Shown piece after piece: positions 9,484-16,926 of a stretch of 64,000 nt of DNA; within the stretch, counting starts at the first letter, position 1, and each line of letters begins with the position of its first letter. The position numbers and the translations under genes are program-made. The notes beneath the pieces are model-generated. The model was not told where the DNA came from. It was given only the letters and a program-made list of their open reading frames with translations, and searched no databases. Source of the DNA: a virus (taxonomy: Duplodnaviria > Heunggongvirae > Uroviricota > Caudoviricetes); the IMG/VR virus record IMGVR_UViG_3300008107_000010; one strand, written 5' to 3'.

Positions 9484-10497
9484 TTATTTTTCATTTAATA
9501 AAAACTTATTAGAGATTGCCTTAAAACTAATAGTTCGATCCATTGTTCTAAATACTACTCCCTCTCTATCAAATTTATCATTTAAGACTGATTTTCCATC
9601 GGCAAAAGCTAGAGCCTCATCAATTGTTTTTGGCAACTTCATGGTCAAATTAGTTAAAACTGGAACAGTGTCTAATTTAAACTCATGTTTCATAATCGAT
9701 AAAAACATTGGTAAACCATAGTAAGTTTGAGAATCAATATCAAATACATTAAAGAATTTCACAGTTTGTCCTTTGATTCCGTATGGATTTCCCTGTATGC
9801 CTTCTCCAATTAATTCTCCTTGAATTGCCAAATTCCTAGCAGAAGCTCGTAATTTCTCTTCAATCTTCAATTCTCTAGCAACTTTCCAAAAAGTATTCTC
9901 TTCAGTTTCGGCTAAATCTAAATTTCTAGAACAAACACCAAATTCTCCATTATTAATATAGAATGTTGCAGAACTACCATCTAGCTTTTCAGTTACATAA
10001 AAATCTAGTTCTTGTTCAATCCAATTATCATAGAATTTAGTCAAGTTTTGTACTCGCTCCTCGTCTGTTTTATGTAAGAAAGATGGAAAATTACCACGAA
10101 CCTTTCCTGCCAATTCTGCTGGAATTGGTGGTTCATATTTAACAATGCCCAACATTTCAGTAACGTCCATACCTTCACTTACAACTTCGCCTAATGGAAG
10201 TACATGAATTGGCAATAATAAGCCTTGGCTTAATTGACCTCTTAGTCTAATTGTTTTAAGACGGAAACCTTCCTGCCCAGCCATTTTCTTATATGAACTC
10301 TTACGTAAAAATTCAAACTCTTCTTTAATAGGCAAGAATGAGTCAATCTCGCAATAAATACAAAAGTCTCCAACTTTGTATTCTCCTTTTTTAACAACAA
10401 CATCCCAGTTATTGATTCTTGCAACTTCAATAGCATCAGCACCTTCAATCGGTCTGATTTCAGCTACTAGTTGAATACTTGCTAATTTTCTTTCCAT
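9484..10497 (-). CDS. ATP-dependent RNA ligase, Rnl5-like (N-terminal OB-like domain plus nucleotidyltransferase)
   Basis: KxDG motif I (TEKLDGSS) lies in the C-terminal half. The N-terminal ~150 aa and the overall 337-aa size fit the DraRnl/NgrRnl architecture. Confidence 0.5.
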   Translation of the reverse strand: MERKLASIQLVAEIRPIEGADAIEVARINNWDVVVKKGEYKVGDFCIYCEIDSFLPIKEEFEFLRKSSYKKMAGQEGFRLKTIRLRGQLSQGLLLPIHVLPLGEVVSEGMDVTEMLGIVKYEPPIPAELAGKVRGNFPSFLHKTDEERVQNLTKFYDNWIEQELDFYVTEKLDGSSATFYINNGEFGVCSRNLDLAETEENTFWKVARELKIEEKLRASARNLAIQGELIGEGIQGNPYGIKGQTVKFFNVFDIDSQTYYGLPMFLSIMKHEFKLDTVPVLTNLTMKLPKTIDEALAFADGKSVLNDKFDREGVVFRTMDRTISFKAISNKFLLNEK

Positions 10498-10657
10498 TTT
10501 ATTAAAAAATTATTGTTCTCCAAAATTAAATGAGATACCATGTTTTAGCCAAATTAGTTGGATCTCATAACAACCATTTAGCATTTTACTATGTGTGATT
10601 TTTAGGGTTGGAATCAAATAGATTTGATATGCAACGCCAAATATTTCTACTTTCATA

Positions 10658-11758
10658 TTATTCATTAAAAGGTTTTTCGTATTTTGGTTTAACTAACTTC
10701 CAAATTATTTCTGAGTAATCTTTTTCATCTAGCATTTTAAATAAAATTCCAGGATGCGCAAAGTTTTTAGAAAATTGAGCAAATAACTTTCTAGTTCCTA
10801 ATCTTTTAATTGAATCAAAATGATCTAAATATTCATTTTCTAATTTAGAGTATTCTAATCGAATATTTTTTTCAGTTCTTTTAACCCAGTTGTAAAACTC
10901 ATCAGGTACATCTTTTAACATTTCTTCTGGTAATTTACCAAACTTCATTAAGTTTTCCCAAATATCATAAGAAGATACATTTGTCAAGATACGGTGCAAA
11001 GCAACATAATCTTCAAATTTAATTTTAACTCGAGTATTTGATGGAAAGAAACGCAAAACATAACCTTCTTCGTTCTGTTTATTTAAAGCCTTTAACTTTT
11101 TATACAAATCATGGCCTAAATGCTCTTTAAAGATTTGTTCAGTTTTTACAATATCTTTGGCTTTAATACCAGACATTTTAAAGTAGGCTTTTGCAGTAGT
11201 CCAATGTAACTCATCTTGGTCTGACTCTTTCCAACCGTTAAAAGTCCAGTTAATTACAGCACCCAGGAAGACAAGATTTTCTTGTTTATAATTAACTACA
11301 ATTCGATTCTCTGGGTAGATAATTTCACAAATATAGGCCACTGAAGGTTCAAATACATCTAAGATATATTTTGACTTTAAGATTTCCATGCCACGAATGG
11401 CTTGATCCGAAGTAAAAGAACCTCGAGTTGCCATAATCCATTCGCCATTATAATTAAATAAGATACCTAATGAACCGTCCATTTTATCTTGGACATATAC
11501 ATATTCTGAACTCAACCACGGTACATCATTCGGTATCTCTTCGTAGTTAAAAAACTTTGAAAATGGTTTAACTATCACCTTTCCAGTGATGTCATCGGTA
11601 ATCACGCCTCGACACGACAGAGTAACCTCGTCCCAATGAGATTCATATTGGGTTGATTGTGAATAGTTGTATATAGACAATGGCAAAGACGGATGGGTCT
11701 GTTTAATTAACCATCCATCTTCAACATATTTGTCTAATATCTTTTTGTCTAATTTCAT
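10658..11758 (-). CDS. rnlA: RNA ligase 1 (T4 Rnl1/gp63-like tRNA repair ligase)
   Basis: SIYNYSQ...CRGVI...KPFSKFFNYEE...QDKMDGSLGILF aligns with T4 Rnl1 (RIFSYNYAS...ECRGIMF...EKFFNLNENP...TKEDGSLVSTY). Confidence 0.75.
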   Translation of the reverse strand: MKLDKKILDKYVEDGWLIKQTHPSLPLSIYNYSQSTQYESHWDEVTLSCRGVITDDITGKVIVKPFSKFFNYEEIPNDVPWLSSEYVYVQDKMDGSLGILFNYNGEWIMATRGSFTSDQAIRGMEILKSKYILDVFEPSVAYICEIIYPENRIVVNYKQENLVFLGAVINWTFNGWKESDQDELHWTTAKAYFKMSGIKAKDIVKTEQIFKEHLGHDLYKKLKALNKQNEEGYVLRFFPSNTRVKIKFEDYVALHRILTNVSSYDIWENLMKFGKLPEEMLKDVPDEFYNWVKRTEKNIRLEYSKLENEYLDHFDSIKRLGTRKLFAQFSKNFAHPGILFKMLDEKDYSEIIWKLVKPKYEKPFNE

Positions 11759-11774
11759 ATGTAAATATAAACAA
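11757..11774 (-). promoter_or_regulatory. early-type conserved motif ATATGTAAATATAAACAA, copy 1 (abuts the rnlA ATG)
   Basis: Exact 18-mer shared with 7 other sites. Confidence 0.5.
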
Positions 11775-11810
11775 AAAACTTGACGCGGTAAAATTATTTT
11801 TGAATTTCTT

Positions 11811-15092: not shown

Positions 15093-15130
15093 TTTCCATG
15101 AAACGGAAAAACATTTTTAAAACTTTTTTA

Positions 15131-15158
15131 ATAAAAAAATCCTGGCCGAAGCCAGGAT
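15131..15158 (-). terminator. strong intrinsic terminator
   Basis: 8-bp GC-rich stem atcctggc-cgaa-gccaggat, followed on the minus strand by TTTTTTTATT. Confidence 0.65.
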
Positions 15159-15486
15159 TAAATCTAACGGGATCGTGTTCGTACTATTCAGCTCGGCAGC
15201 TATATCTCGTTTAACGTCCTCGACTTCTGCTTCGACGGCCTACTCGACTTCAGCTGGTCTCATGCTCCTTCGTCTACAATGAGAAGTTGACGGCGCGCTT
15301 TTAGTTTTCAACCAGGGCGCTGCTTTCCGGGTCTCGTTAGAGAATAAGCTTGCGCTCTATTACATCTAACCTGATCATAGTAGTTTAGATACTTTTTGCA
15401 GTACCGATCCACCTGGTTCCATTTCTTATAGCGTAATAATTGTTGAGCTTAAAAATTTGCTGTAAGGAACCAATTTCTTTATATAT
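15159..15486 (-). ncRNA. candidate structured ncRNA (Y-RNA-like?) downstream of the Ro60-like gene
   Basis: GC-rich island in an AT-rich genome. Stops in all frames with no ORF above 15 codons. Bounded by a late-type motif at 15476-15486 and the terminator at 15131-15158. Complementary segments include 15401-15410 (minus GGATCGGTAC) with 15170-15184 (minus GTACGAACACGATCC), and 15414-15420 with 15466-15472. Confidence 0.3.
15476..15486 (-). promoter_or_regulatory. late-type motif (minus GATATATAAAG) directly after the Ro60-like stop codon
   Basis: Identical 11-mer to 5157-5167. Confidence 0.35.
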
Positions 15487-16926
15487 CTAAACAATTTGAG
15501 AGTATCTCTCTCCCAAGATTGTTTGATCCATGATTTGTTGTGGTGAAGTGATTTCACCCTTAATCAATGAGGTCATGATAGCTGGTGAGAAACCAGAAAC
15601 TAATGCTGTACCCTGTTGATCGAATTTAACTGGAACTCCTCCATTTCTAGATTGAATATTCCAAAATACAATTTGTGGCATTTTATAACCAGCTTCAGCA
15701 TACATGGTTTCAATCATTTGGAACGCGGTTGGATTCCATTCTGTTTTTTCATCTCTACCGTACCATCCGCCTCGTGAATTTGTCGCCGCATTAAACTCCA
15801 TATCTGATAAGATTAAAAGTTTGGTTGGCATCTCATCCTGAGACAACTTATGTTTAGTGGCCTGATTTAAAATCAGCTTAAAAGCCGCCTCAAGATTCGT
15901 TGACATACCCCAATCGGAACTTGCCATCTGTGTGTAGCGATCTTTTAATGAACCACTTAATACTTGTAACTGTGGATTACTTGAGAATGTGATGAATGCA
16001 TCTTTAAAGGCTCCTTCATTTCTTTCAGAAATATAAAGACCTAATGAGATTGCAACATCCATACAAGTTACATTCTTATTATTTCCTGCGGCAGTTTCCA
16101 TTGAACCTGAAACGTCAACCAAAGGCAACAACATTTCATTAGAGCCTTCCATGTAATTTGGAAGAGCTTTCCATTGTTCATTAGCAACTTGCCAGTTACC
16201 CATTTTTAATGACTTAGTAATATCATAAGGATATACAGCTCCGGCATTAATTTTTGCCTCTCCTTTCTGTAAAGATTGGATATATGCTGAATATTTCTCA
16301 AATGCATTTCGACCAAAGGCTTTTTGGTACCGAGCTGATGCAAGAGATGGAATTTTACCAAATTCAATAGTGTCCCAGTCTTTAGCACACATTTTGGTTT
16401 CAACAACACTAGTTAAATTAACCAATGTTTTACGGTATTGCTTTGGAGACATACCCATAAAGTTACGCAACTTTTCAGCATTTGTACCTTTACGTGGCAT
16501 CCACTTAGCACATAGACCATTACCAGATCCAATTGCGGCTTGGATTAATGATAACGCATCCTTTTCTAAGCGTGAACCTATAAGTGTTAGAAGGTCATCC
16601 CAACGACCAAATTCAGCCACCAAATGAAGATTTGGTTTAAGAGCCAAGTCGTGGTTTTCAACCAAATATTCCATAACATCACGGAAGATTTGACGCTCTC
16701 CAGCACCACCACGAACATCACGAGCCCAGAAGAGAATCTTCATAGCGCGTTTAGGATCTTCGTTAAACGCTTTAGAAAAATTAGAAATCAAGCGTGATTT
16801 GTCTTGGCCACGCATTGCACCAACATTAAAAAATAAGTCAACACAAGCATTCAATGATGTTGAGTTGGTTGCCATACCATTTTCAGTAAGCATGTCTTCT
16901 TGTCTTAAAGCGTCTACAAATTTCAT
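15487..16926 (-). CDS. Ro60-like TROVE/von Willebrand A protein
   Basis: N-terminal TENGMATNSTSLNACVDLFFNVGAMRG resembles the TROVE N-terminus. MIDAS motif LVDVSGSM lies in the C-terminal vWA domain. 479 aa. Confidence 0.6.
   Translation of the reverse strand: MKFVDALRQEDMLTENGMATNSTSLNACVDLFFNVGAMRGQDKSRLISNFSKAFNEDPKRAMKILFWARDVRGGAGERQIFRDVMEYLVENHDLALKPNLHLVAEFGRWDDLLTLIGSRLEKDALSLIQAAIGSGNGLCAKWMPRKGTNAEKLRNFMGMSPKQYRKTLVNLTSVVETKMCAKDWDTIEFGKIPSLASARYQKAFGRNAFEKYSAYIQSLQKGEAKINAGAVYPYDITKSLKMGNWQVANEQWKALPNYMEGSNEMLLPLVDVSGSMETAAGNNKNVTCMDVAISLGLYISERNEGAFKDAFITFSSNPQLQVLSGSLKDRYTQMASSDWGMSTNLEAAFKLILNQATKHKLSQDEMPTKLLILSDMEFNAATNSRGGWYGRDEKTEWNPTAFQMIETMYAEAGYKMPQIVFWNIQSRNGGVPVKFDQQGTALVSGFSPAIMTSLIKGEITSPQQIMDQTILGERYSQIV

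What the first reader, a model, noticed from the sequence alone, without database searches (positions are those of the whole stretch)
9484..16926. Unusually complete RNA end-healing and sealing island
Within 7.5 kb the window encodes several RNA-repair functions:
- A T4 Rnl1-like ligase (10658-11758).
- A second ATP-dependent ligase with N-terminal OB-like domain (9484-10497, Rnl5/DraRnl-like).
- A stand-alone P-loop polynucleotide kinase (11980-12393).
- A calcineurin-type binuclear metallophosphoesterase (12400-13044).
- Three unknown ORFs.
- The Ro60-like gene and its candidate ncRNA.

T4 uses Pnk plus Rnl1 to repair tRNA cut by host anticodon nucleases. Here the healing enzyme is split, and its phosphatase is of the bacterial Pnkp (calcineurin-like) type rather than the T4 HAD type. 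Two different ligases are present. This points to a broader or differently targeted RNA repair capability, probably countering an RNA-targeting host defence such as an anticodon nuclease or RNase toxin.
Basis: partly seen in the sequence, partly recalled or inferred. Interest (0 to 1): 0.8.

Follow-up and report, generated by a model that had tools for sequence, protein, structure and literature searches.

The report
Phage RNA-repair gene cluster with Ro-like RNP
A large T4-like phage, probably of Flavobacterium, carries two RNA ligases, a small polynucleotide-type kinase and a metallophosphoesterase next to a Ro60-like protein with its own structured RNA; the repair set is a reshuffled version of kits already seen in many phages, and the RNA is the only part that looks undescribed.

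Summary
The ORFs are real and lie where stated, all on the minus strand.

**Firm**
- 9484-10497 is an Rnl5/NgrRnl-type RNA ligase.
- 10658-11758 belongs to the Rnl1 family.
- 15487-16926 (DUF2828 plus vWA) models as a Ro60-like fold.
- The gap after it holds a conserved, terminator-ended RNA of about 350 nt with covarying helices and no Rfam match.

**Inferred**
- 11980-12393 looks like a Pnk-clade kinase.
- 12400-13044 is an intact metallophosphoesterase. An RNA 3'-end role rests on adjacency and a fusion family only, and it shows no detectable sequence similarity to the solved bacterial Pnkp phosphatase.

**Corrections**
- This is not one operon. Two terminators and three copies of a repeated promoter-like motif define at least four transcription units.
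- Related phages shuffle two modules: Ro-like protein plus RNA, and kinase-phosphoesterase-ligase.
- Of the "unknown" ORFs, one has a primase-polymerase (AEP) fold and one is a domain also found in giant polyvalent proteins. Neither is tightly linked to repair.
- The split kinase, phosphoesterase and Rnl1-like trio is already annotated in phage rV5 and a Pseudomonas phage.

Verdict: a plausible tRNA/RNA break-repair kit and a new member of a known kind. The Ro-like protein and its RNA are the part worth following.

The parts
15487..16926 (-). Ro60-like protein (DUF2828 helical-repeat N-terminal part plus vWA domain with a complete MIDAS motif)
15133..15482 (-). Structured non-coding RNA of about 350 nt directly after the Ro-like gene, ending in an intrinsic terminator (15159-15138). 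Exact ends are not mapped.
   Evidence: 32 distinct homologues. It follows the DUF2828 gene on the same strand in all 40 informative loci. The consensus has 35 pairs in 8 helices. Ten pairs show compensatory changes against 4.0+-1.0 in shuffles (0/500) and 0-3 in slid controls. Terminator. No Rfam family matches.
15075..15089 (-). Repeated promoter-like motif (T/A)TTATATTTACATAT, 14 nt before the 56-aa ORF
   Evidence: Nine matches, eight of them on the minus strand, against 1.35 expected; 0 of 100 shuffles reached nine. The same block is conserved after the ncRNA in related loci.
14891..15061 (-). 56-aa Lys/Arg-rich ORF, function unknown
   Evidence: tblastn-conserved (61-82% identity) in seven loci of the first set, directly upstream of the 200-aa ORF in five of them. 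It recurs in that position in three later-fetched loci from contigs already represented in the first set. No family hit.
14289..14891 (-). 200-aa protein with an archaeo-eukaryotic primase (AEP/prim-pol) fold; probably not part of the repair set
13357..14178 (-). 273-aa protein of unknown function; its family also occurs as a domain inside giant polyvalent proteins
   Evidence: 387 cluster representatives at E<=1e-3. Large members carry ART-PolyVal, Kinase-PolyVal, NUDIX, PolyA_pol plus HD, and Topo I domains. No Pfam or PHROG hit.
13302..13325 (-). Intrinsic terminator closing the 56/200/273-aa unit
   Evidence: 9-bp stem, 5 G-C pairs, T-run.
13281..13295 (-). Promoter-like motif before the 71-aa ORF, phosphoesterase and kinase unit
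13046..13261 (-). 71-aa ORF directly upstream of the phosphoesterase, function unknown
   Evidence: 80% identical copies directly upstream of the phosphoesterase homologue in L003 and L004; L005 carries the ORF but ends before that position. No family hit.
12400..13044 (-). Binuclear metallophosphoesterase; inferred RNA 3'-end healing enzyme (2',3'-cyclic phosphodiesterase / 3'-phosphatase)
   Evidence: PF00149, phrog_547. Signature metal-ligand residues invariant. Nearest solved relative is aq_1665 1xm7 at E 1.7e-7. Adjacent to the kinase in 39 of 67 loci. phrog_8238 joins kinase, phosphoesterase and ligase in one protein.
11980..12393 (-). Stand-alone P-loop kinase of the polynucleotide-kinase clade; inferred RNA 5'-OH kinase
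   Evidence: AAA_33, phrog_505. The P-loop, D35 (aligned with T4 Pnk D35) and R112 are invariant. Weak profile hits aligning over most of its length are PSTK, T4 Pnk and CthPnk; Trl1-type kinase and Pnkp1 match the P-loop only. A ligase lies within 5 kb in 37 of 45 loci.
11757..11771 (-). Promoter-like motif abutting the ATG of the Rnl1-like gene (possible leaderless transcript)
10658..11758 (-). Rnl1-family ATP-dependent RNA ligase
   Evidence: PF09511 above cutoff. phrog_562 covers residues 13-364 including the C-terminal domain. Motifs I, IV and V align with T4 Rnl1. It falls below the TIGR02308 equivalog cutoff, 54 against 242 bits.
9484..10497 (-). Rnl5 (NgrRnl/DraRnl-type) RNA ligase with an N-terminal OB domain
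   Evidence: PF01743 at 1e-18 and phrog_24229 at 2.5e-57.

Best explanation
The core of the finding is a four-gene RNA break-repair module: phosphoesterase, kinase, Rnl1-family ligase and Rnl5 ligase (13044 to 9484, minus strand).

Proposed pathway, all steps inferred. A host ribonuclease such as an anticodon nuclease or toxin RNase cuts tRNA or another stable RNA, leaving a 2',3'-cyclic phosphate and a 5'-OH. The metallophosphoesterase opens and removes the 3' phosphate. The small Pnk-clade kinase phosphorylates the 5'-OH. The Rnl1-family ligase seals breaks in single-stranded loops. The Rnl5 ligase seals nicks inside duplex RNA; that substrate preference is taken from the published biochemistry of NgrRnl and DraRnl (own knowledge). 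A CCA-adding enzyme 13.5 kb away would restore 3' ends.

A separate, neighbouring module is a Ro60-like ring-plus-vWA protein and a dedicated structured RNA of about 350 nt, transcribed together or in tandem. By analogy with Ro60/Y-RNA particles, it would bind damaged or misfolded RNA ends and either hand them to nucleases or present them for repair.

The three ORFs between the two modules form their own transcription unit, and the 71-aa ORF heads the phosphoesterase-kinase unit. None of them shows evidence of taking part in repair.

Shown here: family or fold of each protein; intact catalytic motifs; recurrent linkage of kinase, phosphoesterase and ligases; conservation and covariation of the RNA.

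Inferred: every substrate and activity, the order of steps, and any cooperation between the two modules.
For: - Ligase identities.
- Kinase: phrog_505 over its full length; D35 and the P-loop aligned with T4 Pnk; invariant residues; weak solved relatives aligning over most of its length act on RNA or polynucleotide substrates.
- Phosphoesterase: complete metal-site motifs.
- Linkage: the kinase has the phosphoesterase within 1.5 kb in 39 of 67 loci and a ligase within 5 kb in 37 of 45. The four genes recur in two tight orders: MPE-Kin-Rnl1-Rnl5 (window, L018) and Rnl1-MPE-Kin-Rnl5 (L090/092/094, L127/131).
- Fusion family phrog_8238 has the order kinase, phosphoesterase, ligase.
- The same trio is annotated in rV5 and vB_PseuGesM_254.
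- Published surveys describe such phage kits, including calcineurin-like phosphatases, multiple ligases and ROT/TROVE proteins (PMC7824862).
- Ro-like fold. RNA conservation and covariation. Strict adjacency of the RNA to the Ro-like gene.
- Thermus phage phiLo Ro60 binds adjacent Y-like RNAs and host PNPase (PMC12135203).
- DUF2828 genes abut tRNA arrays, or RtcB/Rnl genes, in unrelated phages.
Against: - No activity was measured.
- The kinase matches to solved polynucleotide kinases are all weak (E 0.004-0.1).
- The phosphoesterase has no detectable sequence similarity to any characterised RNA 2',3'-phosphatase, and the window holds two more paralogues.
- The related loci are not phylogenetically independent, so the linkage counts overstate the evidence.
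- The Ro-like module and the repair module are separate transcription units. They are adjacent in only a minority of relatives.
- The Ro-like model has only moderate confidence (pLDDT 65) and no Pfam TROVE match.
- The RNA is about three times longer than known Y RNAs, and its MFE is not unusual for its composition (z = -0.09).
Confidence: 0.6

Rival explanations
1. The cluster is a chance neighbourhood in the plastic early/accessory region of a large phage. The genes share timing of expression, not a pathway, and the kinase and phosphoesterase act on nucleotides, cyclic-nucleotide or NAD-derived signals (counter-defence or metabolism) rather than on RNA ends.
For: - Each unit has its own promoter-like motif and two terminators split the region.
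- Gene order and content differ widely among relatives.
- Three metallophosphoesterase paralogues lie in one window.
- Phage calcineurin-like enzymes are also proposed to degrade signalling nucleotides (PMC7824862).
- In vB_PseuGesM_254 the kinase sits beside NAD-salvage genes.
- Source annotations of the kinase are inconsistent.
Against: - The kinase-ligase linkage holds in 82% of loci within 5 kb, through several gene orders, and in distant cultured phages.
- A fusion family joins all three activities.
- A dedicated guanylate kinase exists elsewhere in the window.
Confidence: 0.2
2. The enzymes process nucleic-acid ends in DNA metabolism: repair of nicks carrying ribonucleotides, or end-healing during replication or recombination. 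The AEP-fold protein would lay down RNA primers, and the Rnl5-type ligase would seal 3'-ribo/5'-DNA junctions.
For: - An AEP-fold protein lies inside the cluster.
- Thymidylate synthase and other DNA-metabolism genes flank the region.
- DraRnl/NgrRnl-type ligases seal nicks whose 3'-OH strand is RNA; the 5'-phosphate strand can be DNA (own knowledge).
- T4 Pnk also acts on DNA ends (own knowledge).
Against: - The AEP-fold gene is only loosely linked to the repair genes.
- An Rnl1-family ligase with its C-terminal domain points to tRNA-type substrates.
- The theme is reinforced by a CCA-adding enzyme and a Ro-like RNP in the same window.
Confidence: 0.1
3. The Rnl1-family protein serves mainly as a tail-fibre attachment factor, as T4 gp63 also does, so the apparent two-ligase redundancy is structural rather than repair-related.
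For: phrog_562 is the T4 gp63 family, categorised as 'tail'.
Against: - The catalytic motifs I, IV and V are intact.
- The gene lies among early-type genes next to the kinase, not among the structural genes at 37-56 kb.
Confidence: 0.05

Closest known systems
T4 Pnkp + Rnl1 (+ Rnl2) tRNA repair pathway
   Same: Same logic: a 5'-kinase, a 3'-phosphatase and an Rnl1-family ligase, plus a second ligase specialised for duplex nicks. The kinase aligns with the T4 Pnk kinase domain, including the P-loop and D35. Ligase motifs align with T4 Rnl1.
   Different: - Kinase and phosphatase are separate proteins.
- The phosphatase is a binuclear metallophosphoesterase, not a DxDxT/HAD enzyme.
- The second ligase is Rnl5, not Rnl2.
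- The Rnl1 homologue is far below the T4 RnlA equivalog score.
Split kinase / phosphoesterase / Rnl1-like trio of cultured phages (E. coli phage rV5, Pseudomonas phage vB_PseuGesM_254)
   Same: The same 137-aa kinase family (44-53% identity) sits next to a phosphoesterase and an RNA ligase. In rV5 a tRNA array lies 3.5 kb away.
   Different: Those phages show no Rnl5 and no Ro-like gene in the stretches examined. To my knowledge none of these trios has been characterised biochemically.
Bacterial Pnkp(-Hen1) and phage fusion proteins of phrog_8238
   Same: The domain order kinase, metallophosphoesterase, ligase corresponds to the three adjacent genes here. Mycobacteriophage Omega/Cjw1 Pnkp also pairs a kinase with a metallophosphoesterase (own knowledge).
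   Different: - Here the genes are unfused.
- There is no detectable sequence similarity to the CthPnkp phosphatase.
- No Hen1 methyltransferase was found in the cluster.
Naegleria gruberi / Deinococcus radiodurans Rnl5 ligases
   Same: Full-length match at E 6e-81 with the same N-terminal OB plus nucleotidyltransferase architecture.
   Different: It is phage-encoded and sits beside end-healing genes. Its substrate is untested.
Ro60 / Y RNA particles (Thermus phage phiLo Ro60-Yrl, bacterial Rsr-YrlA, often beside rtcBA)
   Same: Best structural matches of the whole protein are Ro60s. It has a MIDAS-bearing vWA domain, a structured RNA encoded immediately adjacent, and RNA-ligase genes nearby, as in rsr-yrlA-rtcBA operons (PMC7790460 listed; PMC12135203).
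   Different: - The sequence family is DUF2828, not Pfam TROVE.
- The RNA is about 350 nt with 8 helices, against 80-130 nt for Y RNAs (PMC4201824).
- No tRNA-like domain was detected.
- Binding is not shown.

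Membership tests
Rnl5 (DraRnl/NgrRnl) RNA ligase | N-terminal OB domain followed by a nucleotidyltransferase domain, with no C-terminal domain | tested here: met
   PF21189 covers residues 5-97 and PF09414 residues 166-327. 5cot aligns at 3-335 against 5-336.
Rnl5 (DraRnl/NgrRnl) RNA ligase | Curated family score and catalytic motif I lysine | tested here: met
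   TIGR02306 scores 223.5 bits against a cutoff of 151.15. KLDGSS aligns with NgrRnl KLDGSS.
Rnl5 (DraRnl/NgrRnl) RNA ligase | Seals nicks in duplexes whose 3'-OH strand is RNA | not testable with these tools
   Biochemical property.
Rnl1 (T4 RnlA) RNA ligase | Pfam RNA_lig_T4_1 nucleotidyltransferase domain with motifs I, IV and V | tested here: met
   PF09511 scores 61.3 bits against a cutoff of 28.3. KMDGSL, EGYV and KIK align with T4 Rnl1.
Rnl1 (T4 RnlA) RNA ligase | Rnl1-specific C-terminal (tRNA-specificity) domain | tested here: inconclusive
   The phrog_562 profile covers residues 13-364. The pairwise alignment to the T4 structure stops at residue 256.
Rnl1 (T4 RnlA) RNA ligase | Equivalog-level similarity to T4 RnlA | tested here: not met
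   TIGR02308 scores 54.3 bits against a cutoff of 242.25. This makes it a family member, not an orthologue.
Polynucleotide 5'-kinase (T4 Pnk / CthPnk clade) | P-loop plus a general-base Asp about 20 residues downstream and a lid arginine | tested here: met
   G9-P11-G12-G14-K15, D35 and R112 are invariant. D35 aligns with T4 D35. T4 R38 has no aligned counterpart.
Polynucleotide 5'-kinase (T4 Pnk / CthPnk clade) | Significant sequence similarity to characterised polynucleotide kinases | tested here: inconclusive
   phrog_505 matches at E 1.2e-9. Solved Pnk structures match only at E 0.011-0.13.
Polynucleotide 5'-kinase (T4 Pnk / CthPnk clade) | Phosphorylates 5'-OH RNA/DNA ends | not testable with these tools
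   Biochemical property.
Bacterial Pnkp-type 2',3'-phosphatase module | Binuclear metallophosphoesterase motifs (DxH, GD, GNHD/E, H, GHxH) | tested here: met
   D16, H18, G68, D69, G95, N96, H97, D98, H143, G161, H162 and H164 are invariant in 15 homologues.
Bacterial Pnkp-type 2',3'-phosphatase module | Family-level relationship to the CthPnkp/lambda-phosphatase-like module | tested here: not met
   The profile search of the PDB finds only aq_1665 (1xm7). No other chain matches at E<=1.
Ro60 (TROVE + vWA) | Helical-repeat ring followed by a vWA domain with MIDAS | tested here: met
Ro60 (TROVE + vWA) | Sequence membership in Pfam TROVE | tested here: not met
   None of 7 diverse homologues hits TROVE at E<=5. 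The profile hits TROVE chains only at E 0.1, in the vWA part.
Ro60 (TROVE + vWA) | Binds a Y RNA encoded nearby | tested here: inconclusive
   A conserved structured RNA is always adjacent. It is not Y-RNA-sized, no Rfam Y RNA hit was found, and binding is untested.

The most novel reading that the evidence does not exclude
DUF2828-type Ro60-like proteins, present in at least 710 phage genome records (which include duplicate GenBank/RefSeq entries), define a second, unrecognised branch of Ro ribonucleoproteins tied to tRNA biology. In most lineages the gene abuts the phage tRNA array. In this freshwater Flavobacterium-type lineage it is instead paired with a dedicated RNA of about 350 nt and eight helices that no RNA family describes. 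The particle would act as the scaffold or quality-control arm of phage tRNA repair. Earlier Y-RNA surveys would have missed it because they started from TROVE-annotated genomes.
Probability: 0.3. Interest if true: 0.6.

Novelty: new member of a known kind. Interest (0 to 1): 0.4.

Why it matters
Phage RNA-repair kits are the counter-move to host nucleases that cut tRNA. Only the T4 version is understood biochemically.

This locus adds a well-resolved example of the unfused kinase plus metallophosphoesterase variant combined with Rnl1 and Rnl5 ligases. That combination is widespread in environmental and cultured phages but has not been characterised.

The more useful lead is the Ro-like protein with its private structured RNA. 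If they form a particle, it gives a tractable system for asking what Ro-type proteins do during infection, and why they sit beside tRNA genes in many phage families.

Tried and rejected
- Near-identity DNA search of the 7.4-kb region against GenBank phages: no match. The closest isolate by protein is Flavobacterium phage immuto_3-5A at 60%.
- Rfam at gathering and at permissive thresholds on the ncRNA region: only terminator-driven chance hits.
- Single-sequence MFE of the RNA is not better than shuffles (z = -0.09). The structure claim therefore rests on comparative data only.
- Homologue search with the kinase to find domain fusions: the best 120 hits are all stand-alone proteins, so it was uninformative. 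Fusion evidence comes only from phrog_8238.
- Sequence and profile searches of the PDB for the 200-aa ORF gave nothing. Only the fold search was informative. The BFVD search returned uncharacterised phage proteins.
- Direct PDB search with the Ro-like protein gave nothing, and no member hit Pfam TROVE.
- I considered the 200-aa AEP-fold protein as an RNA-acting polymerase of the repair set. I rejected it as the main reading because its linkage to kinase or ligase is weak.
- I considered the 273-aa protein as repair-linked because one polyvalent relative is fused to a CCA-adding-type domain. I rejected this as evidence, since polyvalent proteins join unrelated domains.
- The Burroughs & Aravind 2016 survey could not be read. 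Statements about it rest on memory and on its citation in PMC7824862.

Full report
**What is there.** The window comes from a large T4-like myovirus. It encodes a tail sheath, large terminase, major head protein, prohead protease, portal, clamp loader, gp46/47-like nuclease and DnaB-like helicase. G+C is about 33% and nearly all genes are on the minus strand. No GenBank phage is close at the DNA level. The nearest isolate by protein is Flavobacterium phage vB_FspM_immuto_3-5A. Hundreds of related IMG/VR viral contigs of up to about 310 kb exist. L083 is essentially the same phage.

**The two ligases.** ORF 9484-10497 is an Rnl5 ligase. It has the PHA02142-type OB domain plus the RNA_ligase domain and scores above the curated TIGR02306 cutoff. 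It aligns end to end with the Naegleria gruberi RNA ligase structure at E 6e-81, with motif I conserved.

ORF 10658-11758 belongs to the Rnl1 family. PF09511 is above cutoff. The T4 gp63 PHROG covers residues 13-364 at E 4.8e-63. Motifs I, IV and V align with T4 Rnl1. It is far below the T4 RnlA equivalog score, so it is a family member rather than an orthologue. The refutation condition 'the second ligase is a DNA ligase' is not met.

**Kinase and phosphoesterase.** The 137-aa ORF 11980-12393 is a P-loop AAA_33 protein. It matches the kinase half of the 'polynucleotide kinase' PHROG over its whole length (E 1.2e-9). It aligns with the T4 Pnk kinase domain so that the P-loop and the catalytic Asp35 coincide. 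Both are invariant in 16 homologues, together with a lid Arg-His pair.

A family profile finds only weak solved relatives (E 0.004-0.13). Those that align over most of its length are kinases acting on RNA or polynucleotide substrates: seryl-tRNA(Sec) kinase, T4 Pnk and the Clostridium thermocellum Pnk domain. A Trl1-type fungal kinase and Pnkp1 match over the P-loop only, as adenylate kinases do. A separate guanylate kinase lies at 22103-22582.

ORF 12400-13044 is a metallophosphoesterase with every metal-binding motif invariant. Its only solved relative is the uncharacterised aq_1665 (E 1.7e-7). No other chain, including the bacterial Pnkp phosphatase, matched at E<=1.

**Linkage.** I fetched 80 viral loci centred on kinase homologues (59-99% identity) and tabulated homologues of all window proteins.
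- The phosphoesterase lies within 1.5 kb of the kinase in 39 of 67 loci with enough flank.
- An Rnl1- or Rnl5-like ligase lies within 5 kb in 37 of 45.
- The four genes recur tightly in two orders: MPE-Kin-Rnl1-Rnl5 (window, L018) and Rnl1-MPE-Kin-Rnl5 (L090/092/094, L127/131).
- One PHROG family (phrog_8238, 737 aa) carries kinase, phosphoesterase and ligase in that order in a single protein, and is hit by all three window proteins.
- In cultured phages of other lineages the same small kinase sits beside a phosphoesterase and an RNA ligase: rV5, with a tRNA array 3.5 kb away, and Pseudomonas phage vB_PseuGesM_254. These are already annotated as such.

The loci are related to one another, so these counts are not independent events. 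Persistence of the linkage through rearrangements and across phage families is still the main argument that the kinase and phosphoesterase work with the ligases.

**Not one island.** An intrinsic terminator follows the ncRNA (15159-15138) and another follows the 273-aa ORF (13325-13302). A 15-nt motif, (T/A)TTATATTTACATAT, gives nine matches in the window, eight on the minus strand, against 1.35 expected. Three copies lie before the 56-aa ORF, before the 71-aa ORF, and abutting the ATG of the Rnl1-like gene. The same block is conserved in relatives.

The region is therefore at least four transcription units:
1. Ro-like gene plus RNA.
2. The 56/200/273-aa ORFs.
3. The 71-aa ORF, phosphoesterase and kinase.
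4. Rnl1-like and Rnl5 ligases.

In relatives the Ro-like module and the repair module are often apart.

**The Ro-like protein.** ORF 15487-16926 is DUF2828 plus DUF7788. It has homologues in 710 phage genome records, including KVP40, Felix O1-like, A511-like, Twort-like, Campylobacter and cluster L mycobacteriophages. In the last group it is annotated 'Ro-like RNA binding protein'.

In six unrelated phages examined, the gene lies beside the phage's tRNA array. In Listeria phage AG20 it is followed by an HD hydrolase, RtcB and an RNA ligase.

**The RNA.** The 425-nt gap after the Ro-like gene is richer in G+C than its surroundings by inspection and ends in a terminator. A conserved 31-nt block retrieved 44 further viral loci. 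In all 40 loci with enough flank, the element follows the DUF2828 gene on the same strand, either directly or after an insert of about 380 nt.

Thirty-two distinct copies align with conserved 5' and 3' parts and a variable centre. RNAalifold predicts 35 pairs in 8 helices, including a 5' hairpin and a long-range helix closing the body. Ten pairs carry compensatory changes against 4.0+-1.0 in column shuffles (0 of 500) and 0-3 when partners are slid. Of all cells, 98.6% are paired.

The sequences are close relatives, so few independent events underlie these numbers, and the single-sequence MFE is unremarkable. No Rfam family matches, and ARAGORN finds no tRNA-like gene there.

The RNA is about three times the size of known Y RNAs (80-130 nt; PMC4201824). 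That survey started from TROVE-annotated genomes, so DUF2828 loci were outside its scope. The phiLo Ro60 paper reports adjacent Y-like RNAs with a CGAA motif and complexes with host PNPase (PMC12135203). The present RNA has conserved GUCGAAG and GCCGAAGAC blocks in most copies; the window's own copy reads GCUGAAG and GUCGAGGAC at those positions. I could not establish a Ro-binding helix.

**The 'unknown' ORFs.**
- The 273-aa ORF belongs to a family of about 390 cluster representatives. That family also occurs as a domain in giant polyvalent proteins.
- The 56- and 71-aa ORFs are conserved but have no family assignment.
- The 61- and 51-aa ORFs are doubtful.

**Other genes on the theme.** Elsewhere in the window there are a tRNA nucleotidyltransferase (26541-27281), two more metallophosphoesterases (20466-20990 and 30704-31426), and one tRNA-Ser gene.

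**Assessment.** The best reading is a phage RNA break-repair module (phosphoesterase, kinase, Rnl1-family and Rnl5 ligases) lying next to a separate Ro-like RNP module. Confidence is 0.6 for the first. It is lower for any cooperation between the two.

Comparative surveys have already described such modular, shuffled phage repair kits, including calcineurin-like phosphatases, several ligases per phage and ROT/TROVE proteins (PMC7824862; Burroughs & Aravind 2016, from memory). The repair set is therefore a new member of a known kind, and 'unusually complete' is not justified.

The Ro-like protein's dedicated ~350-nt RNA, and the wider association of DUF2828 genes with tRNA arrays, are the observations I could not find described.

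Noticed in passing
window minus strand: 11771-11757, 13295-13281, 15089-15075, 20385-20371, 24881-24867, 26478-26464, 27581-27567, 47276-47262: A 15-nt motif, (T/A)TTATATTTACATAT, occurs eight times on the coding strand (nine matches in all against 1.35 expected). Where I checked, it lies 14-26 nt before a start codon, and once it abuts the ATG. It looks like a phage-specific promoter, possibly read by the phage's own sigma factor (19725-20345).
   Followed up: partly
window 14289-14891 (-): The 200-aa protein has an archaeo-eukaryotic primase fold with invariant DxD and His. Its family has more than 6600 members, 77-85% identical among the best 120, which is higher than the 59-83% seen among the fetched kinase loci. 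Function is unknown. Viral structural matches are all uncharacterised proteins.
   Followed up: partly
window 13357-14178 (-); proteins P0404, P0437, P0438: The 273-aa ORF's family also appears as an internal domain of 1000-2400-aa polyvalent proteins. Those carry ART-PolyVal, Kinase-PolyVal, NUDIX, Topo I and a CCA-adding-type PolyA_pol plus HD pair.
   Followed up: partly
   Followed up: partly
L001 (KVP40), L002 (S13), L207 (MiniLon), L208 (AG20), L209 (EC6), L210 (FADO): In six unrelated phages the DUF2828 Ro-like gene lies beside or inside the phage tRNA array. In AG20 it is followed by an HD hydrolase, RtcB and an RNA ligase.
   Followed up: partly
L002 9856-9976 and 9986-10098: Cronobacter phage S13 has two over-long 'tRNA' genes (121 and 113 nt) about 500-600 nt downstream of its DUF2828 gene. 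They could be intron-bearing tRNAs or tRNA-like partner RNAs.
   Followed up: no
L164, L167, L168, L173, L175, L180-L182, L185, L187, L194, L195: In a subset of related phages an insert of about 380 nt separates the Ro-like gene from the ncRNA. I did not examine its content.
   Followed up: no
window 6744-7871 (-): The thymidylate synthase is 375 aa, long for the family, and the homologue in the immuto phage is 423 aa. This suggests an insertion or extra domain.
   Followed up: no
window 8942-9430 (-), 14891-15061 (-), 13046-13261 (-): Three ORFs adjoining the repair genes have no family assignment. The 56- and 71-aa ORFs are conserved in several related phages. The 162-aa ORF recurs only in L048 and in L083, which is essentially the same phage.
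   Followed up: no
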